Of a stretch of 64,000 bases of DNA, positions 3,117-30,854 are shown piece by piece. Within the stretch, counting starts at the first letter, position 1, and each line of letters starts with the position of its first letter. Made by a program: the position numbers and the translations under genes. The stretch is taken from positions 1,088,001 through 1,152,000 of the forward strand of contig OY969561.1 of NCBI GenBank assembly GCA_963701085.1, in the 5' to 3' direction. The notes under the pieces were generated by a model. It did not search any database and was not told the DNA's origin. It saw nothing but the letters and a program-made list of their open reading frames with translations. This DNA is from an uncultured bacterium (lineage in GTDB: Bacteria; Babelota; Babeliae; Babelales; Vermiphilaceae).

Positions 3117-3299
3117 AATATTCTCATTATTTAATGTATGTGTCCTTATTATTAGCGTATATTTATTTTCTATTTTCGCAAATGGGGTCTCAAAAAGCCT
3201 TGTTAATGCTGTTTTTATGGGAAAATGGCTGTATACTGAGGGTATATAGGGATTTTTGGGGGGTTAAAAAGTTCCATTTCTTGTTAAATGTTCTTTCCT

Positions 3300-3693
3300 C
3301 GCGCTCGTCCTGAGTTTGTCGAAGGATATCTTCGAGCGCAGTATTAAGAGTTAAATATGCAAAATTACTTTTATCTGTATATTTTAAAATGTGTTAATGG
3401 TGCCTATTATGTAGGGCATACAGATAATATTGAACAGCGTCTGTCAGAGCATCATTTGGGTGTAATTAGTAATTGTTATACAAAAAATAAAAGACCTTTA
3501 GAGCTTGTGTTCCTACAGGATTTTCCTACAAGGGATGCTGCATTTCATGCAGAGCGCCAAGTTAAAGGATGGTCTCGTAAGAAAAAAGAAGCATTGATGA
3601 GAAGCGATTGGGAAGAAATAAGACAATTAAATGTTTTACATAAGAAACAAAGATCGCTCGAGGATATCCTTCGACAAACTCAGGACGAGCGCG
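3300..3693 (+). mobile_element. GIY-YIG cassette 1 bounded by inverted family-A repeats
   Basis: 3300-3338 and 3655-3693 are inverted repeats matching at 38/39 nt. Confidence 0.8.
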
Positions 3694-3704
3694 GGGAAGA
3701 ATAG
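3357..3704 (+). CDS. Small GIY-YIG endonuclease (UPF0213-like), copy 1; C-terminus reads through the right repeat
   Basis: YLYILKC..GAYYVGHT..R..EH, YTK..RP and AERQVKGWSRKKKEAL motifs. Confidence 0.92.
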   Translation: MQNYFYLYILKCVNGAYYVGHTDNIEQRLSEHHLGVISNCYTKNKRPLELVFLQDFPTRDAAFHAERQVKGWSRKKKEALMRSDWEEIRQLNVLHKKQRSLEDILRQTQDERGEE

Positions 3705-10920: not shown

Positions 10921-11811
10921 ATGTGTAATATGGTAATAAAAAGAATAGAGATAAGAAGATTGGCATATTGTTTGAAAAAGGAGAGTCAATTGAAGAGAAT
11001 AATGTGTGTATTACCATTACTCGTTAGTGCGCTCATAATATATCCATCAGAAAAAAATATTATGCTTGAATCATCAGTAATAAAAGTAGCAGATGGCACG
11101 TTTCTTAATGCCGATAAAATAGAGTTTATTAGAAAATTTCGTCGAACATTACTTACGTTTATTTTTGGTGACCAGCTCTCTAATAATCAACGCAAGGGTA
11201 AGTACTTCTTTTGTGGTAAGTGGCATGGTGTAGAGTCTCTTGCCCGCATTGAGCAAGAATTGGCTACTTCAACACGCAAAGAAGATGTTGAAAAACGACT
11301 TGCAATTGAAGAATTGTTAACGCACGCTAAAGCGGATTTTATTGTCCAATCAAGTGAATTTATCGAAAGTGGACGTGGTGCAAAAAACATTATGGTTGTG
11401 CTTATTCAAGAAGATTGTCAAAAGCGTAATCGCCTGGATAGTTTGTTGTTAGATTGGGCTAAGACCAAAGAAGGGCAAGAATCAACAATGTTTGAACGTC
11501 AGATCACCAGTTTTGGTCATTATTATTATTTTTTGACTGATTTGGTGAATTTTTTATTGGATCTTGTCCATAGTTGTCCCAAAGCAGAAAAACAGTTTAA
11601 AGATCGTGTTGCAAAGTGGAGTGCTGTTAAAGCGATACTACCAACTGTGTTAAAAAAAGCGCATGTAAAAAATGAGTATGTTAATGAAATTGAATTTCTT
11701 AAATATCTTAAAGAGCGGTATCTTGATTCAATAATGCTGAATGAGATTACTCCTCAGGTTATTGTTCCTTTATTAACAGAATATATAAAACATACGAATG
11801 CACATGCCTGA
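10921..11811 (+). CDS. Hypothetical protein (start uncertain)
   Basis: 296-aa ORF overlapping the recD2 start. Confidence 0.7.
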   Translation: MCNMVIKRIEIRRLAYCLKKESQLKRIMCVLPLLVSALIIYPSEKNIMLESSVIKVADGTFLNADKIEFIRKFRRTLLTFIFGDQLSNNQRKGKYFFCGKWHGVESLARIEQELATSTRKEDVEKRLAIEELLTHAKADFIVQSSEFIESGRGAKNIMVVLIQEDCQKRNRLDSLLLDWAKTKEGQESTMFERQITSFGHYYYFLTDLVNFLLDLVHSCPKAEKQFKDRVAKWSAVKAILPTVLKKAHVKNEYVNEIEFLKYLKERYLDSIMLNEITPQVIVPLLTEYIKHTNAHA

Positions 11812-14092
11812 AATTGAATCCTTACAAGGAGTTGTTGATCGCGTTATTTATCAAAATCAAGAAAATGGCTTTGCTGTTTTTGTTATCCAACTGAACGCAA
11901 AAAATAGTGTTACTGTCAAAGGATGTGTGCCGACAATTACTGCTGGCGAACAGGTATTGGTGAGCGGCGTTTGGAATATGCATCAAAAATTTGGCAAACA
12001 GTTTGATGCGCAATCATGTGAAAAGCAGGCGCCGACTTCTATTCTTGGTCTTAAAAAATATTTGGGTTCGGGGCTTATCAAAGGTATTGGTCCGGTTTAT
12101 GGTGATAAGCTGGTAGCAGCTTTTGGTGAAAAAGTTCTTGAAGTTATTGATCAACATCCTGAGCGTCTTATGTCTGTTCCCGGTATTGGTGCTAAGCGTG
12201 TTGAAAAAATTGTCACTGCCTGGAAAGATCAAAAAGAGATTTCCAACATCATGGTTTTTTTGCAAAATAAAGGAATTTCTTCTACCTATGCAGTAAAAAT
12301 TTATAAGCAGTACAAAGAAAACGCTATTGCTATTATTGAGGAAAATCCATATCGCCTTGCACAAGATATGTGGGGTATTGGTTTTAAGACTGCTGATCAG
12401 ATAGCGCAAAAAAGTGGTATTGCTCCTGATTGTAAGCGACGCATTGTGGCAGCAATTTTACATGTTATTCAGACAACATCGAGTGATGGTAATTTGTATA
12501 TACAGCTCGAATTGCTTAAAAAAGAGATGGCAGAGTTGCTTGAGTTGGAACTTGAAGGCATTCAGCATACAACAAAATGTGCGCTGCATGATCTGTATAA
12601 TGCTGATAAAATAAAATTATTAACGCATAACGATATTCATTATATTACGTTGCCTTCATTTTATTTTTCTGAAAAAGGTATTGCGCATAAAATTGATAAA
12701 ATGGTCACATCGGCACCACATCATACATTTGATTTGGAGAAAATAAAAAAAAATTTATGGAATGATTCCTGTTTAAATCATTCTTCCCGCGCTCGTCCTG
12801 AACCTGTTGAAGGATGTCCCCGAGCGCTCGAAGAAACCCTTCAACAAGTTCAGGGCGAGCGCAAGGAGATGCATAACAATGGTATTGCCCTTAATGAACA
12901 GCAGCAGGAAGGTGTGCTCGCCTGTTTGCAGCACAAAGTTACTATTATTACTGGTGGCCCGGGAACGGGTAAAACAACACTTATTAAAAAATTATTAATG
13001 CTGCTTGATCTACAACGAGTTAAATATGCACTTGCAGCCCCAACAGGAAGAGCGGCAAAACGTATTACGGAAGGCACAGGAAGGCCCGCTTCTACTATTC
13101 ATCGGTTGCTTGATTTTGATGTAAGTACCATGTCTTTTAGATACAATGAATCCCATCCTCTTGCGGTTGATTATCTGATTGTTGATGAAGCATCGATGAT
13201 TGATGTGTTTCTTGCGAACGCATTGATTAAAGCATTGCCAGCATCGGCACATCTTGTGTTGATTGGTGATATTGATCAGTTGCCATCAGTTGGTGCGGGT
13301 AATTTTTTACATGATATGATTGCGAGTAAAAAAATTGCCACCATAAGTCTTAAGCATATATTTAGGCAAGCGCAAGATAGCCTTATTATTATTAATGCCC
13401 ATCGTATTAACAATGGAGAATTCCCAACGACGGAACATGAAAATTCGCGCAAAGATTTTATTTTTATTAAAGAAGATAATCCAGAAAATATACCAATGCA
13501 TTTGGAAGCTATTTATAGTAAAGCATTACGTCATTATGGCATCCACAAAGATGATACAATTGTACTCACACCGATGCATCGTGGCGTTGCAGGAACACAA
13601 AAATTAAATCATGATTTGCAACAGCTGTTGAATGGTAATAATGGTGGACCGGCTGTTGGGTATGCAGGAGCGCAGTTTCAGGTTGGTGATCGAGTGATGC
13701 AGCTGCGTAATAATTATGATAAAAATGTGTTTAATGGTGATATTGGGGTTATTGAAAGCATTAATGCAGAAGATAAAATAGTGCACGTACGTTTTTTTGA
13801 AAATATTGTTGATTATGAAACATCAGATCTTAATGAATTGGTGCATGCGTATGCAATTTCTATTCATAAAAGCCAAGGATCTGAATTTTCTGCCGTTATT
13901 ATTCCGGTTTTTATGCAGCATTTTATGATGCTGCAACGAAATTTACTGTATACCGCCGTTACGCGTGCAAAAAAATTATGTATAATCATAGGGCAATCGC
14001 GTGCTATTGCAATGGGAATAAAAAATAATAAAAGCAGCGAGCGTATTACGTTTTTACAACAATTTTTGACAACAGATTTAGCATGCCGATAA
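11804..14092 (+). CDS. recD2: RecD2-like ATP-dependent helicase with in-frame repeat insertion
   Basis: GIGP HhH, GGPGTGKT, APTGRAAKR, DEASM, HKSQGSEF motifs. Confidence 0.95.
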   Translation: MPEIESLQGVVDRVIYQNQENGFAVFVIQLNAKNSVTVKGCVPTITAGEQVLVSGVWNMHQKFGKQFDAQSCEKQAPTSILGLKKYLGSGLIKGIGPVYGDKLVAAFGEKVLEVIDQHPERLMSVPGIGAKRVEKIVTAWKDQKEISNIMVFLQNKGISSTYAVKIYKQYKENAIAIIEENPYRLAQDMWGIGFKTADQIAQKSGIAPDCKRRIVAAILHVIQTTSSDGNLYIQLELLKKEMAELLELELEGIQHTTKCALHDLYNADKIKLLTHNDIHYITLPSFYFSEKGIAHKIDKMVTSAPHHTFDLEKIKKNLWNDSCLNHSSRARPEPVEGCPRALEETLQQVQGERKEMHNNGIALNEQQQEGVLACLQHKVTIITGGPGTGKTTLIKKLLMLLDLQRVKYALAAPTGRAAKRITEGTGRPASTIHRLLDFDVSTMSFRYNESHPLAVDYLIVDEASMIDVFLANALIKALPASAHLVLIGDIDQLPSVGAGNFLHDMIASKKIATISLKHIFRQAQDSLIIINAHRINNGEFPTTEHENSRKDFIFIKEDNPENIPMHLEAIYSKALRHYGIHKDDTIVLTPMHRGVAGTQKLNHDLQQLLNGNNGGPAVGYAGAQFQVGDRVMQLRNNYDKNVFNGDIGVIESINAEDKIVHVRFFENIVDYETSDLNELVHAYAISIHKSQGSEFSAVIIPVFMQHFMMLQRNLLYTAVTRAKKLCIIIGQSRAIAMGIKNNKSSERITFLQQFLTTDLACR
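12788..12862. repeat. Empty family-A doublet read in-frame within recD2
   Basis: Two inverted arms fused at cgagcgctcg; encodes RARPEPVEGCPRALEETLQQVQGER. Confidence 0.9.
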
Positions 14093-14748: not shown

Positions 14749-14814
14749 GCGATCAGATCTTTTTTGTAAAGAGTGAATATAATAATATGGTATCTATCAA
14801 AGTAGATTATGTCC

Positions 14815-15222
14815 TTCCCGCGCTCGTCCTGAACTTGTTGAAGGATGTCCTAGAGCGCTCTTAATAGAGATAATAAATATGCAAAATCATTTTTACATGT
14901 ACATTTTAAAATGCATAAATGGTGCATATTATGTTGGACATACAGATAATATTGATAAAAGAATGTCCGAACATAATTTAGGTTTAATTAGTGGTTGTTA
15001 TACTAAAAATAAATGGCCCCTAGAGCTTGTGTGTCTTGAAGTTTTTTCAACGAGAGATGATGCATTTCATGCGGAGAGACAAGTTAAAGGTTGGTCGCGC
15101 AAGAAAAAAGAAGCTTTTATACAAAATGATTGGGACAAAATTAAAAAACTTAATTTTTTACAAAAATAATGATGGGGAGCGCTCGAGGACATCCTTCAAC
15201 AAGTTCAGGACGAGCGCGGGAA
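14815..15222 (+). mobile_element. GIY-YIG cassette 2 bounded by inverted family-A repeats
   Basis: 14815-14860 and 15177-15222 are inverted repeats matching at 45/46 nt. Confidence 0.85.
14879..15169 (+). CDS. Small GIY-YIG endonuclease, copy 2
   Basis: About 74% identical to 3357-3704 over 96 aa (counted by eye). Confidence 0.92.
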   Translation: MQNHFYMYILKCINGAYYVGHTDNIDKRMSEHNLGLISGCYTKNKWPLELVCLEVFSTRDDAFHAERQVKGWSRKKKEAFIQNDWDKIKKLNFLQK

Positions 15223-15245
15223 AGCAAGAATAATTTGAGGTAACC

Positions 15246-16540: not shown

Positions 16541-18094
16541 TTATAATTCCAGTTTTTTTTGAGAATAGAGTGTATCAAAATGTTGATTTACTTTATTTTC
16601 ACTCTCATATTTCAATAATGCAGTACCCTCGAATAATTCTTTAAATTCTGCAAATGCATAACGATTTTCATCAAACAGAGAGTTGTTGCACAATGAATCA
16701 TGTACAGCAGCAATATCAAGTTCTTTTATTACCGTATAGGCTTGGTATTGTGTAGCTGTTGGGGTTGTTTTTGTAAGCCGTGCGTTGTTATATTTTTTTA
16801 CTAATGTGCAAAAAAGAGAAATATATTGTCTTATATTTTCAGGAGAGTGTTTTGAATCAAAAAACCTACAAAATAGCTCTTTAATTGATGGAAATGATTC
16901 AAATCCAATAATGTTAGCAGCAAGATCATCCTCATTAATTATATCTCGCGCGTTTTTTGCTTTATCAATCATTTGTATAAGATGGTAGAGATCATAGGTG
17001 GTGCCATTGTGGAGTAACAGATCATAAGCATGAGTGTAAAATTCATTTTTAAAATCTACGTAAGAACCTTGTGAATAATCCTGTAATAGTATGCCGTCAT
17101 TTTCATACAAATAAGTCGTGAAAATATTTACAGATCCAATATCAAGCTCTTGCATAGCATGCCGTAAAGCGCAGGTGAGTTGAAAAAAGGCTGGATATGT
17201 TAAGAAGTCATTATGTGTATGTGTTGTATTCGTAACAGTCTGTTCGTTTGTATCAGATGGTGCAGTGAGGATGTCTTTAAGGCGGGTTTTTTTTGCACCA
17301 AAGTGAAGAGGTGGTTGTTCACCTGTTTCACGTACCGTTAGGTTGTATTTTTTTAAAAGACTGAAAAAAAGAGGGTAGAATGGGGTCATATCAATATCAT
17401 TAATAGTCAAAATTCCTTTTTTATTATACGCAAACCGCCCCATACTATCTTCATGTATACCGCTATTTCTTGCCTCATTCATATGTTGGATTAAGCGAAC
17501 AAGTTTTTTATTTTGATATTTTTGCTCAAGTCGTTTTCCATATTCACCACAGACAATACGGCAAGATTCATTGTACAGTGATTGCATCATATTTTCATCA
17601 GGTCGTAAGGAGTTGGTGAGTAAAAGTGGCTTTTGCACGGATGTGCCCTTCGTAGCCTTGGCGAAGTAGGGTTCTTGCTCAGTAGATTTACTCTGTTTTT
17701 TGTAGACGGGGGTAAGAAGTTGAGCCTCATTAGTAGTTGCCACTGGTTGGTCACGTTTATAGGTCATATCCATGACTTTATTATATAGTGGCCAATTTGT
17801 ATTGACGATTTGATCATAGGTTTGTTGTTTATTTACGTCTGGCTGCACATTGGTATGTATGGGTTGGGAATAGGGGTTTGGGTCAAAAATAACCAAAGGA
17901 TGTCCTGTTGGGGTGATACAGGGCCAGTTGCGTTCATATGTCATATTTGTAAAACGTTCCCAACCAAGCTCATTTGCTTTGAACACAGGCACATTTTGTG
18001 GCGCAGGATGATGAATTTTGGGACGTTCTCGTTCCATGCATGAGGTGGTGAGAGTAGTGATGGTCAGAAATAAAGAGAGATATATTTTTTTCAT
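16541..18094 (-). CDS. Secreted orphan protein, paralogue 1 of 3; family-B unit in-frame at 17642-17671
   Basis: Shared motifs MTYKRDQ, EDSMG, KKYNN, DSLCNNSLF. Confidence 0.85.
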   Translation of the reverse strand: MKKIYLSLFLTITTLTTSCMERERPKIHHPAPQNVPVFKANELGWERFTNMTYERNWPCITPTGHPLVIFDPNPYSQPIHTNVQPDVNKQQTYDQIVNTNWPLYNKVMDMTYKRDQPVATTNEAQLLTPVYKKQSKSTEQEPYFAKATKGTSVQKPLLLTNSLRPDENMMQSLYNESCRIVCGEYGKRLEQKYQNKKLVRLIQHMNEARNSGIHEDSMGRFAYNKKGILTINDIDMTPFYPLFFSLLKKYNLTVRETGEQPPLHFGAKKTRLKDILTAPSDTNEQTVTNTTHTHNDFLTYPAFFQLTCALRHAMQELDIGSVNIFTTYLYENDGILLQDYSQGSYVDFKNEFYTHAYDLLLHNGTTYDLYHLIQMIDKAKNARDIINEDDLAANIIGFESFPSIKELFCRFFDSKHSPENIRQYISLFCTLVKKYNNARLTKTTPTATQYQAYTVIKELDIAAVHDSLCNNSLFDENRYAFAEFKELFEGTALLKYESENKVNQHFDTLYSQKKLEL

Positions 18095-18097
18095 AGG

Positions 18098-19639
18098 TTA
18101 TTTCCTTGGAGGATAAAATTGATCAATACATTCCTGTATATTTTCGTCAGAAGAGTTAGTTAATATTCTTATATTATCAATTAATTCTTTAAATTCATCA
18201 AATGCATATATTGTTTTGTTGAACAGCGTATTATCACATGAATCAGGTAAGGCAAAATCGGAGTTATAATAGCGGAATTCGTTATAAGCTTCGAATTGAT
18301 TATATGTTGGTGTTTTTTTATCTTTTCGTTGATTATTGTATTTTTTTATGAGAAGGCAAAGAATACCAATAAGTTTTTTTGTGTAAAATGTATTATGAAT
18401 TTTTCCTGCGACAGGGCTTAAGAATGTAAAAAGTTTTTCTGTTGCTGTTAGTTCTGATTCAATAATATCATAGCCAAAATCATATTCTTGTTTTTCAGGA
18501 ATTAATGTTGTTCCGGCTTCGATTATTTTTATTACATCATACAGGCGGCTATTTATTGACCCTTGAAATTCTTTTTCATATATGGTGAGCAAGACTATAG
18601 GGTATGTCAGTTTATAAAACTTATCTTTTAAATTAGCATATGATAATGGTAAGTAATCATTTTGTGGAATTTCTTTGTTTGAATAGACATAAAAAAGAAA
18701 ATTCTTCATCATGCCGTTTCTGTGTTGCTTACTTGCATACGATTCTAAATTATAAAATGCAGGATAGTTACGGCATACTGATACAGGGTCATATGCATAA
18801 TTGATTTTGTTTGTGTTGGCAGAAGATGGAAGGTCAAGAATTTTGGCAAGTCGGTTGTTAGTTGTTTGGGTTGATGATAACTCATTATTATTTGGAAGAG
18901 GTTCCTTTGTGTTGTTGACCGTCAGGTTATAGTGTTTTAAATAACCAAAAAAAAGCACCATTTTTTCTTCTAATCCTTCTTGGTTATCCAGCCATTTATC
19001 ATATGAATATTTTCCCATAACATCTTCGTCTATATTTTTATTCTTTGCAGTATTCATATCAGTAATCAAAGTTATAAGAGTTTTTGTAGAAGGGTTTTTA
19101 ATAATAGTGAATGCATTATCATATAATTGTTGCATATCAGTATTAGGTTGCACCTGAGGCTTTGTTAGCAACAAAGTCTTTTTTTCGCGCGTTCTTTTTG
19201 ACGTGTGCTTGTCCGCCGTAGTTTTACCGTGTCCTCCGATCTGTCCTCCGTAGCCTTCGGCGAAGGATGGAACGAAGGAGGATAAAGAAGTGTAGGTAGA
19301 GGTTGTGTTGTCTTCAGGTACTGTTTGTACGTAGACGGGAACAAGAAGATCATTTGCATTGGTAGATACCACCGGTTGGTCATGTTTATAGGTCATATCC
19401 ATGATTTCATTATATTTTTGCCAATTTGTATCGACGATTCGTTTATAGGTTTGTTGATTATTTACTATGTCTGGCTGCGTATTGGTATGTATGGGTTGGG
19501 GGAGGAATGGGGTTTGGCTAAAAATAGTTAAAGGGAATCCTGTTAGATTGGTGGTACAGGGCCAGTGGCGTTGTTGTTCCATGCATGAGGTGGTGAGAGT
19601 AGTGATGGTCAGAAATAAAGAGAGATACATTTTTTTCAT
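18098..19639 (-). CDS. Secreted orphan protein, paralogue 2 of 3; nested family-B composite in-frame at about 19208-19296
   Basis: Signal peptide nearly identical to paralogue 1; C-terminal half similar to paralogue 3. Confidence 0.85.
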   Translation of the reverse strand: MKKMYLSLFLTITTLTTSCMEQQRHWPCTTNLTGFPLTIFSQTPFLPQPIHTNTQPDIVNNQQTYKRIVDTNWQKYNEIMDMTYKHDQPVVSTNANDLLVPVYVQTVPEDNTTSTYTSLSSFVPSFAEGYGGQIGGHGKTTADKHTSKRTREKKTLLLTKPQVQPNTDMQQLYDNAFTIIKNPSTKTLITLITDMNTAKNKNIDEDVMGKYSYDKWLDNQEGLEEKMVLFFGYLKHYNLTVNNTKEPLPNNNELSSTQTTNNRLAKILDLPSSANTNKINYAYDPVSVCRNYPAFYNLESYASKQHRNGMMKNFLFYVYSNKEIPQNDYLPLSYANLKDKFYKLTYPIVLLTIYEKEFQGSINSRLYDVIKIIEAGTTLIPEKQEYDFGYDIIESELTATEKLFTFLSPVAGKIHNTFYTKKLIGILCLLIKKYNNQRKDKKTPTYNQFEAYNEFRYYNSDFALPDSCDNTLFNKTIYAFDEFKELIDNIRILTNSSDENIQECIDQFYPPRK

Positions 19640-19643
19640 AATG

Positions 19644-21008
19644 TTATTTCCTTGGAGGATAAAGGTGATCAATACATTCCTGTATATTTTCGTCAGAAGA
19701 CCGAGCTAATATTGTTATATGATTAACTAACTCTGTAAATTCATCAAGTGCATATATTTCTTTGTTGAACACCGTATTATCACATGAATCAGGTAAGGCA
19801 AAATTGGAGTTACAATAGCGGAATTCGTTATAAGCTTTGAATTGAGTATATGTTGGTGTTATTTTATCTTTTCGTTGATTATTGTATTTTTTTATGAGAT
19901 GGCAAAGAATACCAATACGTTTTTTTGCACGATGCGGATTATCGTCTAGTTTTATGATGCTTAACAATATAAAAAGTCCTTCTTCTGTTGTTAGCTCTGA
20001 TTCAATAATATCATAACCAAAATCATATTCTTGTTTTTTAGGAATTGATGTTATTCCGGCTTCGATTATTTTTATTAAATCATACAGGTAGATACCTACT
20101 GTTTCTTGATATTCTGCATATTTTGTGTAGCAGATCACACAAGATGCCAGCTCATAAAACTTATCTTTTAAATCAGCATATGATAATTGTGAGTAATTGT
20201 TTTGTGGGATTTCTTTGTTTGAATAGACATAAGAAATAAAAGTCTTCATTAAGCCGTTATAGGGCTTCATACTTGCATACGATTCTAAATTATAAAATGC
20301 ATGATAGTTATGGCATACTGATTCATGGTCGTATATATAATAGGTTTTGCTTGTGTTAGCAGAAGATGGAAGGTCAAGGATTTTGGCAAGTTGGTTGTTA
20401 GTTTTTGGTGTTAATTTTTTTTTGTATAACTCATTATTATTTGGAAGAAGTTCTTTTGTGTTGTTGACCGTCAGGTTATAGCGTTTTAAATAACCAAAAA
20501 AAAGCACCATTTTTTCTTCTGATGCCTCTTGTTTGTCCAGCCATTTATCATATGAATATTTCCCCATAACATCTTCATCTATATTTTTATTCTTTGCATC
20601 ATTCATATCAGTAATTAAAGTAATCAGAGTTTTTGTAGAAAGGTTTTTAATAACAGTGAATACATTATCATACAATTGTTGTATATCGGTATGAGGTTGC
20701 ACGGGAATAAGGGTGCGTAAAAATGGCTTTGTTTCTTCTTTTTCACATTGTTTTTTTGTTAGGGCCGTATTATTTGTATGCATTGGGCGGTAGATGGGTG
20801 TAAGTTCAATTTCATTGATAGCAATTGTTTGGTCGCGTTTATAGGTCATATTCATAATGTTATCTAGATATTTCTCGTTAGTATCATATGCCTCGCACAC
20901 AGGTATATTTTGTGGCACAGGATGATGAATCTTGGGGCGTTCTCGTTCCATGCATGAGGTTGATACAATATGGGTTGCGAGTAATAAAAAAGCAGATATT
21001 TTTTTCAT
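19644..21008 (-). CDS. Secreted orphan protein, paralogue 3 of 3 (no repeat insert)
   Basis: MERERPKIHHP shared with paralogue 1; C-terminal YPPRK shared with paralogue 2. Confidence 0.85.
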   Translation of the reverse strand: MKKISAFLLLATHIVSTSCMERERPKIHHPVPQNIPVCEAYDTNEKYLDNIMNMTYKRDQTIAINEIELTPIYRPMHTNNTALTKKQCEKEETKPFLRTLIPVQPHTDIQQLYDNVFTVIKNLSTKTLITLITDMNDAKNKNIDEDVMGKYSYDKWLDKQEASEEKMVLFFGYLKRYNLTVNNTKELLPNNNELYKKKLTPKTNNQLAKILDLPSSANTSKTYYIYDHESVCHNYHAFYNLESYASMKPYNGLMKTFISYVYSNKEIPQNNYSQLSYADLKDKFYELASCVICYTKYAEYQETVGIYLYDLIKIIEAGITSIPKKQEYDFGYDIIESELTTEEGLFILLSIIKLDDNPHRAKKRIGILCHLIKKYNNQRKDKITPTYTQFKAYNEFRYCNSNFALPDSCDNTVFNKEIYALDEFTELVNHITILARSSDENIQECIDHLYPPRK

Positions 21009-21167
21009 GCGATAATTCCTTGAAGGCATAATTAATGGTCATAGCATTGCATATTTTATAGCATGAATGAGTACGATCGTCCATGGGTGTTTTTTTGTGT
21101 ACTTGACTCTTATCATTATAAAAATATATGTTTGGGAATAGATGAATTTAAAAAAAAGGAAGAGATT

Positions 21168-28682: not shown

Positions 28683-30854
28683 TTATGAGTTTAATCCCAT
28701 TTCTTGTAAGAACGCCTGTGCATTAGGTTCTCTACCCAAAAAATTATACAGTAATTCGTTCGGATCTTGTGCGCCACCTTTGCCAAGCACTTCTTTAATA
28801 TATTTTTGACCAATTTCAGGGTTGAGTAAACCATATTGTTTGATGGTTGCAAACAGATCAAGTGCAAATACTTTAGACCACAGGTAGCCATAATATTTTG
28901 CACTATAGCCGGTTAAGTGGCCAAATGAGGTGTAAAAGTGATTGTCTTCACAATATGCCATGTATGGCAACATTGTTGTGTACAATTGTTTCATAATTGC
29001 ATGAGGGTTTTTACCGTGCCCTCCGACCTGTCCTCCGGAGCCTTGGCGAAGGGGGAAGCTTTCAGCGAAGGATGGGTTTTCCCCATTTCCAAAATATGAT
29101 AGTGCAATGGAAGAAAGATATGTTTGGCGGGTGACAAAATAACCGGTTGTTAAGTTTTTGAGTTGAATTATTGTATCAATTATATCATCAGGCAACGGTT
29201 GCCCGGTGATATAATGTTTGCTTACTTTTTTTAAGATATCCTTATCATGCAACCATTCTTCCAGCATTTGTGAGGGTAGTTCTACAAAATCAGTTTTTGT
29301 ATGTGTTCCTGATAATGATGCGATTGAAGTAGCTCCTAAAACCGCATGAAGTGCATGGCCAAATTCGTGGAAAAATGTTTGAACTTCAGCGCGTTTGAGC
29401 AGTGAAGGCTTACCATCAGTTGCCTTGGAGAAATTAGCAATGACAATTGATACATCAGGAATGCGGGTGCCATCAGCTTTGTATGTTGACGGAATAATAG
29501 TGGTATGTGCCGCATGGCTGTATTTATTGGGGCGAGGATAAAGATCAAGTAAGAGTGTGCCGAGTAATACGTTACCTGCTTTATCAAGTACGCGTACAGC
29601 GGTTACCTCTTTGTGCCACAATCCGCTTACCGGAACTTCCTGAAATTCAATACTGAAAAATTGACGGTAAACATCAAGTAATTCATTAATGGTGTTTTGC
29701 ATAGGGAAGTACTCAGCTATTTTTTGTTCATCAAGATTGAAGTTATTTTTTTTATAACTGTTTTCAAGATATGCAAAATCCCATGGTTGAATTTTACCGT
29801 TCTGCGTTAACTCAACTGATGGAGGTAATGTTTGAGTAAGCGTTGCCATTTCCGCTTGAACTTTTGCCAATGATTTTTGTGCTAAATCAGCAATAAAAGC
29901 GTGTGCTTTCTGCGGCGTATGAGCCATTTGATCATCAATATCACAATGAGCAAAATCACTGTATCCAAGGAGTTGTGCAAGTTCATCACGCTTGGTGATA
30001 ATTGTTGTGAGTAACGCATCGTTGACAGGATATGCACGATTGTTAAATGCAATGTATAGTTTTTTACGTGTTTGCGGAACTGAGCAATTTTCCATAACTC
30101 TAAAGTATGTTGGGTAATCTACGCCAAGAGTATAGAACCCATCAGGTGTGGGCGTGAGTGTGTTTACAAAATCATTGTCTAAACCAGCAAGATCTTCACG
30201 TGTTACGGTAATTGAGCTATTATCTTGCGCTATATTGCGATCAAAATTTGCGCAGAGACTAGCTAATTCTTTGCGGAGTGCATTCACGAATGCTAATGTT
30301 TCATCAGGAAGTGATAAGCCTTCGCGTTTAAATGAGTTAATCGTATCGTTTACAAAATAACGTTGTTGTTTGGAAAGATTTTCATTTTCTATTGTTTGTG
30401 ATTCATATGCCATAAATGCATGATAAAGAGCTTTATTGCTTGTCACATTATCAACCCAAAAAGCTTGGATTCTTATAGAGGCATCATGCGCTGCATTGCG
30501 AATATTGGTATCTGGGCTCAGGAGCTCCAGTGCTTCATAGACCCGTTGTGCAATAGCAAGGTTAGATAATGAACACACTTCATCCAGTGGTCGTGCGGTA
30601 TTTGCATAAGTACGCTGATCATCAGGAACGGCAATAATAGCGGCAATAATGTTTTTTGCTTCATCAATATAGAGGGGTGTTTTTACCGCAATATCATCTG
30701 TGGTCAACGCGAAAAGAGAGATAATATCGGATGTATGGAATGCTTTGGTAATCATCTTTTTGTCCAATTCATTTGTTTTTGAGCAATAACTTAAGGTGGC
30801 TAAGAAAATAATCATTATGCCAAAAAAAAGTAAGCTCAACGAGTTTTGCTTCAT
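28683..30854 (-). CDS. M3 family oligopeptidase with in-frame nested family-B insert (29014-29076)
   Basis: FHEFGHALH, DFVELPSQMLE, YYGYLWS motifs. Confidence 0.95.
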   Translation of the reverse strand: MKQNSLSLLFFGIMIIFLATLSYCSKTNELDKKMITKAFHTSDIISLFALTTDDIAVKTPLYIDEAKNIIAAIIAVPDDQRTYANTARPLDEVCSLSNLAIAQRVYEALELLSPDTNIRNAAHDASIRIQAFWVDNVTSNKALYHAFMAYESQTIENENLSKQQRYFVNDTINSFKREGLSLPDETLAFVNALRKELASLCANFDRNIAQDNSSITVTREDLAGLDNDFVNTLTPTPDGFYTLGVDYPTYFRVMENCSVPQTRKKLYIAFNNRAYPVNDALLTTIITKRDELAQLLGYSDFAHCDIDDQMAHTPQKAHAFIADLAQKSLAKVQAEMATLTQTLPPSVELTQNGKIQPWDFAYLENSYKKNNFNLDEQKIAEYFPMQNTINELLDVYRQFFSIEFQEVPVSGLWHKEVTAVRVLDKAGNVLLGTLLLDLYPRPNKYSHAAHTTIIPSTYKADGTRIPDVSIVIANFSKATDGKPSLLKRAEVQTFFHEFGHALHAVLGATSIASLSGTHTKTDFVELPSQMLEEWLHDKDILKKVSKHYITGQPLPDDIIDTIIQLKNLTTGYFVTRQTYLSSIALSYFGNGENPSFAESFPLRQGSGGQVGGHGKNPHAIMKQLYTTMLPYMAYCEDNHFYTSFGHLTGYSAKYYGYLWSKVFALDLFATIKQYGLLNPEIGQKYIKEVLGKGGAQDPNELLYNFLGREPNAQAFLQEMGLNS

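What the first reader, a model, noticed from the sequence alone, without database searches (positions are those of the whole stretch)
12788..12862. Repeats translated in-frame within conserved proteins: RecD2 insert just before the helicase core
Seen: an A doublet adds RARPEPVEGCPRALEETLQQVQGER shortly before LNEQQ and the Walker A motif. In-frame inserts occur in 8 genes in the window (recD2, two orphan paralogues, M3 peptidase, an ankyrin leader, ddl twice, priA, gspK-like), using different reading frames. Established: Rickettsia palindromic elements behave analogously. Inference: an active source of new peptide loops in this lineage.
Basis: partly seen in the sequence, partly recalled or inferred. 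Interest (0 to 1): 0.72.

Follow-up and report, generated by a model that had tools for sequence, protein, structure and literature searches.

The report
Nuclease-linked hairpin repeat translated inside RecD2
A small palindromic "selfish" DNA repeat, the gene-less form of an element that elsewhere in the genome carries a tiny DNA-cutting enzyme gene, has landed in frame in a floppy linker of the RecD2 helicase and of several other conserved proteins of this amoeba-symbiont-type bacterium; this kind of tolerated junk-in-a-gene is already known from Rickettsia and other bacteria.

Summary
Window 12788-12862 encodes RARPEPVEGCPRALEETLQQVQGER inside a full-length recD2, 9 residues before the helicase core. 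It is the core of an 84-nt palindrome: two inverted 46-nt hairpin units sharing a central GAGCGCTC. The genome (1.2 Mb, 37% GC) holds 69 such units and 38 doublets.

All 19 aligned relatives lack it, including 10 of the same genus; G000 has 102-105 nt extra. AlphaFold2 puts residues 324-362 in a low-confidence interdomain linker.

The doublet is therefore the gene-less form of a hairpin-nuclease-hairpin cassette. That architecture was described for Ssn nucleases and their motifs (Chenal 2025). In-frame dimers of CGTC-tagged palindromes in replication and repair genes were described by Di Nocera 2013.

Of the 8 genes listed, 6 inserts are confirmed by orthologues and 1 is probable. The ankyrin one is doubtful, and one of the two ddl copies breaks the frame. 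Genome-wide, 74 of 239 elements lie in ORFs.

Verdict: real, and a new lineage and motif variant of a known phenomenon. Mobilisation by the nuclease is inferred, and expression is untested.

The parts
11798..14092 (+). recD2 (764 aa), the host gene; full length and open
   Evidence: ORF. Pfam RecD2 domains. Found in 41 of 41 genomes searched (G000 + 40 relatives), 80-88% identity within the genus. The helicase core aligns to D. radiodurans RecD2 (3e1s) from residue 365.
12784..12867 (.). A-family doublet: left 46-nt unit 12784-12829 and inverted right unit 12822-12867, sharing the central GAGCGCTC. The reported peptide is 12788-12862.
   Evidence: (I17, I9). Both hairpin cores are intact.
12766..12870 (+). 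Approximate full inserted segment (102-105 nt, 34-35 codons). The exact ends are not resolved. The left flank resembles the left flank of the GIY-YIG cassette at 3278.
   Evidence: 306 nt against 201-204 nt between conserved anchors in 10 same-genus genomes. D13 family alignment. Residues 324-362 have pLDDT below 50.
14806..15231 (+). Full cassette: left A unit 14806-14860, GIY-YIG gene 14879-15169 (96 aa), right inverted A unit 15177-15231
   Evidence: I4: 55-nt arms, 91% complementary, 316 nt apart. Pfam PF01541, E = 2e-18. Local alignment of the two flanks matches 45 of 46 positions.
3295..3704 (+). Second cassette: A-variant unit 3295-3339, GIY-YIG ORF 3357-3704, inverted unit 3655-3698 (the ORF runs into the right unit)
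   Evidence: I15: 44-nt arms, 95%. Pfam PF01541, E = 1.3e-17..
29013..29075 (-). C-family hairpin insert in the M3 peptidase (21 extra residues)
   Evidence: Absent from G006, G007 and G010. Pfam Peptidase_M3. AAAACCC lies on both sides and is single in the empty site of G007.
54709..54756 (-). B-family unit in priA (16 extra residues)
   Evidence: Absent from G006 and G007. Pfam PriA domains. (I21).
54625..54663 (-). C-family hairpin in priA (about 13 extra residues)
   Evidence: (D14).
49761..49881 (-). B-family doublet in the second Ddl module, between the N and C domains
   Evidence: Absent from G006. G007 carries a different, A-type insert at the same site. Pfam.
50987..51061 (-). A doublet in the first Ddl module. 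The reading frame changes at its upstream edge, giving ORFs 50984-51610 and 49305-50804.
   Evidence: G007 has an in-frame A-type insert at this site and G006 has none.
17645..17671 (-). C-family hairpin in orphan paralogue 1 (about 11 extra residues)
   Evidence: Compared only with G007 paralogues, so the orthology is loose.
19210..19254 (-). C-type hairpins in orphan paralogue 2 (about 17 extra residues)
   Evidence: with the same caveat on orthology.
63686..63865 (+). A doublet plus C-type hairpins in the N-terminal tail of the gspK-like ORF 63657-(64904). Probably translated.
   Evidence: G006 lacks about 47 residues here. The ORF start overlaps the stop of the upstream gene.
42356..42477 (-). 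Composite element (an A unit with C hairpins in its loop) in the putative leader of an ankyrin ORF. Probably upstream of the true start.

Best explanation
**What it is.** The stretch is a copy of a palindromic doublet of a hairpin repeat (family A). Each 46-nt unit carries a 7-bp hairpin, TCCTGAA/TTGAAGGA, with two central G.A mismatches and a 5-nt loop. The hairpin is preceded by a CGTC tag and enclosed by GCGCTCG/CGAGCGC. Two inverted units share a central GAGCGCTC.

**Relation to the nuclease.** The same two units, each with its own GAGCGCTC, flank 96-aa single-domain GIY-YIG nuclease genes. The doublet is therefore the gene-less form of a hairpin-nuclease-hairpin cassette, the architecture published as NTS-ssnA-NTS.

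**What happened in recD2.** About 102 nt of this element entered recD2 after this species split from the same-genus genomes that were sampled. The insert sits in the linker between the N-terminal module and helicase domain 1A. Its length is a multiple of three and it is read in one of the element's two stop-free frames. RecD2 therefore gains about 34 residues that are predicted to be disordered, and it stays intact.

**Why such copies are seen.** Selection acts as a filter. Insertions are strongly under-represented in coding DNA, and only in-frame, stop-free copies in permissive loops persist.

**Shown:** the repeat identity; the insertion relative to orthologues; the flanking of the nuclease genes; hairpin covariation; the disordered-linker prediction; and the genome-wide census.

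**Inferred:** that the GIY-YIG protein is an Ssn-type single-strand nuclease recognising this hairpin; that it drives or once drove the spread; and that the insert is translated and neutral.
For: **Repeat identity and non-chance.**

**Insertion.** It is absent from 19 of 19 aligned relatives. G000 has 102-105 nt extra against 10 same-genus genomes. In all 40 relatives recD2 matches in two pieces around residues 320-360, with open frames of 724-738 aa where the gene is whole. The exception is G037 (778 aa), whose extra residues lie at other sites.

**Junctions.** Both are covered by metagenome contigs.

**Nuclease link.**
- 4 of the 5 small GIY-YIG genes in G000 are flanked by inverted units: 3 by A units and 1 by B units.
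- Cassettes with A units around a homologous gene also occur in a TM6 MAG (L098) and at G003:C57, G004:C69 and G019 (coordinates).
- Among 40 relatives, 11 of the 17 with the A hairpin have a homologue of the nuclease, against 6 of the 23 without it.
- 9 of the 10 genomes with at least 18 hairpins have the nuclease.
- Same-genus G001 has neither. Kin are not independent, so these counts are descriptive.

**Hairpin under constraint.** The three highest mutual-information column pairs are collinear stem pairs with two-sided changes:
- 13-31: T-A 48, C-G 19.
- 19-25: A-T 54, G-C 15.
- 14-30: C-G 66, T-A 3.

**Frames.** Two of the three frames are open in most doublets (56 of 72 and 59 of 76). The third is closed in 78 of 80.

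**Linker.** Residues 324-362 have pLDDT below 50 (10-residue blocks 45, 28, 32, 29) between well-predicted flanks. The helicase core starts at residue 365.

**Selection filter.** 74 of 239 elements lie inside ORFs, although ORFs cover 87% of the genome.

**No alternative transposase.** No RAYT-type Y1 transposase was found in the genome.

**Published precedent.** The NTS-ssnA-NTS architecture and the single-strand cleavage next to the hairpin come from PMC11893778 (sections 7, 8, 10 and 12 read).
Against: - The paper's own degenerate SRM search motif finds 0 sites in this genome, so the hairpin is not a canonical SRM.
- The CGTC tag is CGCC in 19 of 69 units, and its T is part of the stem.
- Membership of the nuclease in the Ssn clade (cd10448) could not be tested. 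The closest solved structures are UPF0213 proteins (1zg2, 1ywl), and NCBIfam gives no family above its cut-off.
- 6 of the 17 relatives with the hairpin showed no homologue with this query, including G005 with 36 hairpins.
- No target-site duplication or exact ends could be defined for the recD2 copy.
- No strand-transfer activity is known for GIY-YIG enzymes, so how copies are pasted is unexplained.
- Translation of the insert is not shown.
Confidence: 0.8

Rival explanations
1. The relation runs the other way. The hairpin doublets are the primary repeat, spread by host recombination or replication slippage or by an enzyme that is no longer present. The GIY-YIG gene is a homing-type passenger that inserts at the central GAGCGCTC of a doublet. 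On this view the recD2 copy was never derived from a gene-carrying cassette.
For: - In the two window cassettes with GAGCGCTC-type centres, GAGCGCTC or a variant of it stands on both sides of the gene. This is what duplication of the doublet centre on insertion would give.
- Doublets (38) far outnumber cassettes (4).
- 6 of the 17 relatives with hairpins show no nuclease homologue.
- The identical 25-nt hairpin core occurs in a Dehalococcoidia MAG whose two GIY-YIG homologues are not flanked by the A hairpin; one is flanked by a different hairpin.
Against: - The same picture arises if an 8-bp microhomology deletion removes the gene.
- Ssn-type nucleases cut single-stranded DNA next to the hairpin and do not cut double-stranded DNA (PMC11893778, section 8). 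That does not fit classical homing.
- The B family has its own cassette with B units, which suggests that nuclease and hairpin co-evolve.
Confidence: 0.2
2. The insert has been co-opted. Either the extra loop alters RecD2 (partner binding or regulation), or the very stable hairpin in the recD2 DNA or mRNA acts in cis. It could be a nuclease site limiting recombination or replacement of the gene, as NTS does in Neisseria, or an RNA structure tuning translation.
For: - As RNA the 84 nt fold at -50.1 kcal/mol.
- The core positions of in-ORF units are as well kept as those of intergenic units: 0.11 against 0.19 mismatches per unit, for 9 and 47 units.
- Host genes with internal copies include many single-strand DNA-handling proteins: RecD2, PriA, UvrD, DprA, DnaX, MutL and FtsK. 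Di Nocera 2013 made the same remark for REPs (passages).
- The same ddl loops are occupied in two species.
Against: - The insert is absent from all sampled relatives, so RecD2 works without it.
- It is predicted to be disordered.
- Unrelated proteins carry the same peptides in different frames, which argues against a peptide function.
- Conservation of the units may simply reflect youth, and the detection threshold biases that comparison.
- Enrichment in repair genes was not tested against a proper denominator or against gene length.
Confidence: 0.1
3. The insert is not an insertion at all. It is either an ancestral RecD2 segment lost in the relatives or an assembly artefact at a repeat.
For: - The assembly contains several split genes (ftsK, iPGM, ddl, mutL), so it is not error-free.
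- Short-read contigs break at the repeat.
Against: - The segment is a member of a 38-copy palindromic family.
- It is lacking in 19 of 19 aligned relatives spanning the genus, family and order.
- Contigs from two runs bridge each junction at 99-100% identity.
- The frame is kept.
Confidence: 0.02

Closest known systems
Ssn-related motifs (SRM, including the Neisseria NTS/dRS3) with SsnA GIY-YIG single-strand nucleases (Chenal et al., Nat Commun 2025, PMC11893778; abstract and sections 6, 7, 8, 10, 12, 17 read)
   Same: - A small (94-96 aa) single-domain GIY-YIG gene flanked on both sides by inverted, hairpin-forming repeats of 20-50 nt.
- The same hairpin is dispersed in tens to hundreds of copies.
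- The hairpin carries a 5' CGTC-type tag that gives it an orientation.
- The system is enriched in symbionts.
- The authors themselves note the likeness to insertion sequences.
   Different: - The published degenerate SRM motif finds 0 sites here, and the stem and loop sequences are unrelated to NTS.
- The T of the tag is base-paired and covaries.
- 31% of elements lie in ORFs, against 2% of NTS in N. meningitidis (section 12 of the paper).
- Doublets with a shared centre dominate.
- Membership of the nuclease in cd10448 and its single-strand activity are untested.
CGTC-tagged REPs and their intragenic dimers (Di Nocera, De Gregorio and Rocco, BMC Genomics 2013, PMC3733652; abstract and search passages read)
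   Same: - Short stem-loops tagged by CGTC, mostly as close inverted dimers.
- Intragenic copies are mostly dimers encoding 20-30 residues.
- Many hosts are replication and repair genes, with recBCD and UvrD named.
- N-terminal cases are often not truly coding.
   Different: - That survey did not link CGTC REPs to a GIY-YIG gene (0 occurrences of the term).
- It did not cover this phylum.
- The family sequence here was not compared with theirs, because their supplementary tables were not opened.
Rickettsia palindromic elements (RPE; Ogata et al. 2000, recalled, and cited as refs 13-14 in PMC3733652)
   Same: Palindromic repeats inserted in frame in conserved genes of an obligate intracellular bacterium with a small genome. 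They are tolerated as surface loops.
   Different: - Different lineage (relatives here are titled Dependentiae/TM6/Babeliales) and a different sequence family.
- Here the link to a nuclease-bearing cassette is visible in the same window.
- No sequence comparison with RPEs was made.
REPIN/RAYT systems and MITEs
   Same: Palindromic doublets are far more numerous than the gene-bearing copy, which is flanked by the same units. They are non-coding and dispersed.
   Different: - No Y1 (RAYT) transposase is found in the genome.
- The associated gene is a GIY-YIG nuclease, which is not known to transpose.
- No clear target duplication was found; there is one possible 7-bp case.

Membership tests
SRM / NTS-Ssn system (Chenal 2025) | The repeat matches the published degenerate SRM search sequence | tested here: not met
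   A regex of the paper's motif on both strands of the 1.2-Mb genome gave 0 hits. Ten first-order Markov simulations gave 0-3 hits.
SRM / NTS-Ssn system (Chenal 2025) | Hairpin-forming inverted repeats flank a small single-domain GIY-YIG gene on both sides | tested here: met
   4 of the 5 small GIY-YIG genes in G000. Two lie in the window. The same holds in L098, G003, G004 and G019.
SRM / NTS-Ssn system (Chenal 2025) | The nuclease belongs to the cd10448 clade, or is a homologue of N. meningitidis SsnA at E < 1e-10 | not testable with these tools
   No CDD library and no SsnA sequence were on hand. Pfam gives GIY-YIG only. NCBIfam gives nothing above its cut-off. The nearest solved structures are UPF0213 proteins, E = 1.5e-13.
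SRM / NTS-Ssn system (Chenal 2025) | Site-specific cleavage of single-stranded DNA next to the hairpin, with no cleavage of duplex DNA or RNA | not testable with these tools
   This needs a biochemical assay.
CGTC-tagged REP (Di Nocera 2013) | A short stem-loop tagged at one end by CGTC, with units mostly in close inverted pairs | tested here: met
   CGTC stands at unit positions 11-14 in the consensus, and the T is kept in 49 of 69 units. There are 38 doublets. The stem is supported by 3 covarying pairs.
CGTC-tagged REP (Di Nocera 2013) | Intragenic dimers that encode 20-30 residues, often in replication and repair genes | tested here: met
   The recD2 doublet core encodes 25-28 residues. Hosts include RecD2, PriA, UvrD, DprA, DnaX, MutL and FtsK. 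Enrichment was not tested statistically.
Rickettsia palindromic elements | Sequence membership in an RPE family | not tested
   No RPE sequence was used. Only the behaviour (in-frame palindromic inserts) is shared.
MITE | Terminal inverted repeats, a target-site duplication, and a related autonomous element that encodes a transposase | tested here: inconclusive
   The palindromic ends extend to TTCC..GGAA. One possible 7-bp duplication was seen at the M3 peptidase site, and none could be resolved at recD2. The related element encodes a nuclease, not a known transposase.
REPIN/RAYT | A Y1 HUH transposase (RAYT) flanked by the repeat | tested here: not met
   PF01797 gave 0 matches in G000 (92.6% complete), while the control rang in 6 of 14 named genomes.

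The most novel reading that the evidence does not exclude
The hairpins inside genes may not be mere passengers. This nuclease-hairpin system may preferentially persist, and repeatedly re-land, in the linkers of proteins that handle single-stranded DNA: RecD2, PriA, UvrD, DprA, DnaX, MutL and FtsK. The same loop of Ddl is occupied by different hairpin families in two species. On this reading the DNA hairpins act in cis as nuclease sites that control recombination, repair or replacement of exactly those genes. The loops would then serve as reusable landing pads that make these proteins unusually evolvable.
Probability: 0.08. Interest if true: 0.7.

Novelty: new member of a known kind. Interest (0 to 1): 0.4.

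Why it matters
The finding adds a further phylum-level lineage to the bacteria whose conserved proteins are decorated by palindromic repeats. The relatives are titled Dependentiae/TM6, which are intracellular symbionts with genomes of about 1 Mb.

Within a single 64-kb window the gene-less doublet, the nuclease-bearing cassette and the in-gene copies lie side by side. This supports the idea that Ssn-like GIY-YIG nucleases and their hairpins behave as a mobile system.

The hairpin is missed by the published SRM search motif. Surveys based on that motif therefore under-count such systems.

For annotation, such inserts explain extra low-confidence loops, inflated N-termini and some split genes in these genomes.

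Tried and rejected
- **Rfam.** At gathering thresholds only a tRNA was found in the window, so the repeat is not a curated RNA family.
- **First literature search.** The generic terms returned only organelle papers.
- **Expression.** No RNA holder was listed for the recD2 stretch, so expression could not be examined.
- **Empty-site alleles.** In the four DNA runs laid, no joint skipping the insert was seen. These are contigs with patchy cover, so this says nothing about the absence of empty-site alleles.
- **Repeat census.** The first k-mer census without a GC filter was swamped by AT-rich words and was discarded. The GC-filtered census was used instead.
- **Gene calls.** They are my own longest-ORF heuristic, not a gene finder.
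- **Target duplications.** None could be defined for recD2 or priA, because the flanks are too diverged.
- **Dehalococcoidia MAG.** I tried to tie the A hairpin to canonical NTS-type hairpins through a Dehalococcoidia MAG that holds both. Of its two GIY-YIG homologues, one is flanked by yet another hairpin type and the other by none that I searched for, so nothing was learned about A.
- **Earlier scan findings.** By place and by sequence nothing was found. By words, 8 analogous reports were listed, from other genomes.
- **Rejected readings.** Intein, intron and programmed recoding were rejected, because the ORF is simply open and the insert is a dispersed repeat.
Full report
**Observation**

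The ORF 11798..14092 (+, 764 aa) is a complete RecD2 helicase. Pfam finds OB_YrrC, HHH_5, HHH_RecD2, AAA_19/AAA_30, SH3_13 and UvrD_C_2. Codons 331-355 (window 12788-12862) read RARPEPVEGCPRALEETLQQVQGER. LNEQQ follows at residues 365-369 and the Walker A motif at 386-393.

The DNA is the core of an 84-nt palindrome (12784-12867). It is made of two 46-nt units in inverted orientation that share a central GAGCGCTC (I17 and I9). A 25-nt core of the unit occurs 11 times in the window at up to 3 mismatches, against none in 100 dinucleotide shuffles. The genome is one contig of 1,198,634 bp at 37% GC. It holds 69 units at up to 10 substitutions and 38 doublets. As single-stranded DNA the 84 nt fold at -28.3 kcal/mol (z = -6.5), and as RNA at -50.1 kcal/mol.

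**It is an insertion**

recD2 was found in all 41 genomes searched: G000 plus 40 relatives, of which 10 are same genus, 14 same family and 16 same order. In every relative the match breaks into two pieces around query residues 320-360. The whole open frames measure 724-738 aa against 764 aa in G000.

In an alignment of G000 with 19 of these relatives, a run of 34 residues is present in G000 alone. These were the 19 for which loci were returned, and they include all 10 same-genus genomes. G037, with a longer frame of 778 aa, has its extra residues at three other places.

At the DNA level the interval between two conserved anchors is 306 nt in G000 and 201-204 nt in the 10 same-genus genomes. 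That is 102-105 nt extra, a multiple of three within alignment error. This is about 18 nt more than the 84-nt core. The left flank resembles the left flank of the GIY-YIG cassette at 3278 (D13). The exact ends and any target duplication could not be resolved.

Contigs from public metagenome runs bridge the left junction (12649-12799, 0 differences, X5) and the right junction (12834-13200, 2 differences, X1). No contig skipped the insert. One of these runs may be the source sample.

**Where it sits in the protein**

I ran AlphaFold2 on the 20-sequence alignment (mean pLDDT 73, pTM 0.44). It gives residues 324-362 pLDDT below 50, with 10-residue blocks of 45, 28, 32 and 29. On either side are a helix at 313-325 and the first helix of the helicase core at 367-378, where the blocks are 71-92. 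The alignment to D. radiodurans RecD2 (3e1s) starts at residue 365. The insert therefore lies in the interdomain linker just before domain 1A.

**What the repeat is**

The same units flank two small GIY-YIG genes in the window:
- 14879-15169 (96 aa, PF01541, E = 2e-18), between units 14806-14860 and 15177-15231.
- 3357-3704, between units 3295-3339 and 3655-3698.

Both pairs of arms lie 316 nt apart (I4 and I15).

Genome-wide there are five small GIY-YIG genes, plus one match in a 348-aa frame. Four of the five are flanked by inverted units. Three have A units and one has units of a second family (B), which shares the outer CGCTCGCCCTGAG...CGAAGGG ends but has a longer inner hairpin. The fifth lies between hairpins of a third family (C) in direct orientation.

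The doublet is thus the gene-less form of a hairpin-nuclease-hairpin cassette. In the cassettes each unit keeps its own GAGCGCTC. This fits either deletion of the gene between 8-bp repeats or insertion of the gene at the centre of a doublet. I cannot tell which.

Families A, B and C interconnect through composite elements, such as an A unit with C hairpins in its loop at 56666-56848 and 42356-42477.

**The hairpin is under constraint**

Among the 69 units, the three column pairs with the highest mutual information are collinear stem pairs with two-sided changes:
- 13-31: T-A 48, C-G 19, other 2.
- 19-25: A-T 54, G-C 15.
- 14-30: C-G 66, T-A 3.

They define a 7-bp stem with two central G.A mismatches and a 5-nt loop. 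All four combinations of the two main pairs occur, so this is not just two subfamilies.

The identical 25-nt core occurs in MAGs titled TM6, Dependentiae or Babeliales. It also occurs at 3 loci of a Dehalococcoidia MAG (61-64% GC) and 1 locus of a Gracilibacteria MAG.

**Association with the nuclease across relatives**

With one mismatch allowed, the hairpin core was found in 17 of 40 relatives. Within the genus the counts run from 0 to 119 per genome, and G000 has 119. A homologue of the window's nuclease (E <= 1e-8) was found in 17 of 40 relatives.

| | Nuclease homologue found | Not found |
|---|---|---|
| Hairpin found (17) | 11 | 6 |
| Hairpin not found (23) | 6 | 17 |

Of the 10 relatives with 18 or more hairpins, 9 have the gene; G005 is the exception. 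Same-genus G001 has neither. Several of these genomes are incomplete, and kin are not independent, so this is description and not a test.

Cassettes with the hairpin on both sides of the gene are visible at G003:C57, G004:C69 and G019 (coordinates) and in L098. No RAYT-type transposase is present in G000.

**The other in-gene copies**

I fetched the syntenic regions of three complete or near-complete same-genus genomes, G006, G007 and G010. Gene order is conserved, and I aligned the host ORFs.

Confirmed extra in-frame segments that are absent from the relatives:
- M3 peptidase: 21 residues, absent from all three.
- priA: two inserts of 16 and about 13 residues, absent from G006 and G007.
- Second Ddl module: a B doublet, absent from G006.
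- The two orphan paralogues: about 11 and 17 residues. These were compared only with G007 paralogues.

Probable: the gspK-like N-terminal tail, where G006 lacks about 47 residues and the start overlaps the upstream stop.

Doubtful: the ankyrin 'leader'. In both, the relatives appear to start downstream, so the repeat is probably in the 5' region.

In the relatives ddl is a fused ddl-ddl gene, with open frames of 736 and 826 aa. G007 carries an A-type insert at the very site in the second module where G000 has a B doublet. G007 also carries an in-frame A-type insert in the first module, at the site where G000 has its A doublet. In G000 the frame changes at the upstream edge of that doublet, so the gene is split into two ORFs. 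The assembly also has split ftsK and iPGM genes away from repeats, and an in-frame stop in the mutL linker 8 codons after a B doublet. I therefore cannot say whether these breaks are real.

**Census**

I used a GC-filtered k-mer census and single-linkage clustering. The hairpin superfamily comprises 239 elements totalling 13.9 kb.

| Location | Elements |
|---|---|
| Intergenic | 149 |
| At ORF edges | 16 |
| Inside ORFs | 74 |

Of the 74 inside ORFs, 47 lie more than 40 residues from the N-terminus and more than 20 from the C-terminus. ORFs cover 87% of the genome by my longest-ORF heuristic, so coding DNA is strongly avoided yet not free of copies.

Of the three frames of an A doublet, two are open in most copies (56 of 72 and 59 of 76) and the third is closed in 78 of 80. 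The five internal A doublets all use the RPE(L/P)VEG frame. The gspK-like and ddl-1 copies use the other open frame.

Pfam on the host ORFs (35 from outside or reaching past the window, 8 in the window) names the following hosts: PBP transpeptidase, CysRS, UvrD, two Mur ligases, M17 peptidase, FtsK, DprA, DnaX, TilS, MutL, iPGM, TruB, a PfkB kinase and NamZ, besides RecD2, PriA, Ddl and the M3 peptidase. Sixteen of the 35 have no family. Seven hosts handle DNA. This echoes Di Nocera 2013 but was not tested against gene length or category size.

**Comparison with what is known**

Chenal et al. 2025 (PMC11893778; abstract and sections 6-8, 10, 12 and 17 read) report the following:
- 94-aa single-domain GIY-YIG proteins (SsnA, cd10448) cut single-stranded DNA next to hairpin repeats (NTS/SRM).
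- 42% of homologues are flanked by these repeats on both sides.
- The NTS-ssnA-NTS architecture looks like an insertion sequence.
- Only 2% of NTS lie in genes in N. meningitidis.

Their degenerate SRM motif finds no site here. I could not test cd10448 membership; the nearest solved structures are UPF0213 proteins.

Di Nocera et al. 2013 (PMC3733652; abstract and passages) described CGTC-tagged REPs, mostly inverted dimers. They also described intragenic dimers encoding 20-30 residues, many of them in replication and repair genes, and equated some Rickettsia RPEs with them.

The behaviour and the architecture seen here are therefore already in print. What is new is the lineage, the hairpin variant, the covariation evidence and the recurrent use of the same protein loops.

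Three searches found no paper describing this in the phylum: 'Dependentiae' with 'GIY-YIG' (4 papers, 3 listed, none about this judging by title and abstract start), with 'palindromic elements' (0 papers), and with 'palindromic', 'repeat' and 'in-frame'. Subscription journals and supplements were not covered.

Eight earlier reports of this scan describe the same phenomenon in other genomes, mostly of the candidate phyla radiation. They led me to the Ssn paper, whose claims I then read and tested here.

**Verdict**

It is best explained as the tolerated in-frame insertion of a gene-less doublet of a GIY-YIG-associated hairpin repeat into a disordered linker of RecD2. It is a new member of a known kind. 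Mobilisation by the nuclease, translation of the insert and any function remain inferred.

Noticed in passing
window 49305-51610 (-): In relatives, ddl is a fused two-module ddl-ddl gene with open frames of 736 aa (G006) and 826 aa (G007). In G000 it is split into two ORFs at the upstream edge of an A doublet. G007 has in-frame repeat inserts at both sites where G000 has them, but of different types.
   Followed up: partly
G000:C1:836000-837889 (outside the window): mutL ends at an in-frame stop 8 codons after a B-type doublet in its linker. The C-terminal domain continues in the same frame as a separate ORF.
   Followed up: partly
G000:C1:498300-499716 and 914262-915995 (outside the window): ftsK and the cofactor-independent phosphoglycerate mutase gene are each split into two ORFs away from any repeat. 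The single-contig assembly may carry frameshift errors, or these may be pseudogenes.
   Followed up: no
window 52382-53012: A 630-nt nested palindrome lies between an upstream gene and priA. Its outer arms are 52382-52434 and 52960-53012, its inner arms 52448-52502 and 52893-52947, and an A doublet sits at its centre. The inner arms recur as another inverted pair about 500 nt apart at G000 1163950/1164457.
   Followed up: partly
window 29013-29075 (-): The C-type insert in the M3 peptidase is bounded by AAAACCC on both sides, whereas the empty site of G007 has it once. This may be a 7-bp target duplication.
   Followed up: partly
window 56666-56848 and 42356-42477: Composite elements in which C-type hairpins sit inside the loop of an A unit. 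This suggests that hairpins insert into other hairpins.
   Followed up: no
L048, L067, L108 (Dehalococcoidia MAG) and L042 (Gracilibacteria MAG): The identical 25-nt A hairpin core occurs in unrelated phyla. In L048 it lies beside hairpins very like the Neisseria NTS, and one GIY-YIG gene of that genome (L159) is flanked by a third hairpin type.
   Followed up: partly
window 16541-21029 (-), 41302-43826 (-), 44015-49087 (+): Tandem paralogue arrays: three orphan genes of about 460-520 aa, two ankyrin-repeat genes, and a pair of long (859 and 830 aa) paralogous genes, not annotated here, at about 50% identity.
   Followed up: no
G000:C1:843882-844097 (outside the window): A fifth small GIY-YIG gene of a different subtype (84-aa open frame) lies next to a tRNA-like sequence. 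It is flanked by C-type hairpins in direct, not inverted, orientation.
   Followed up: no
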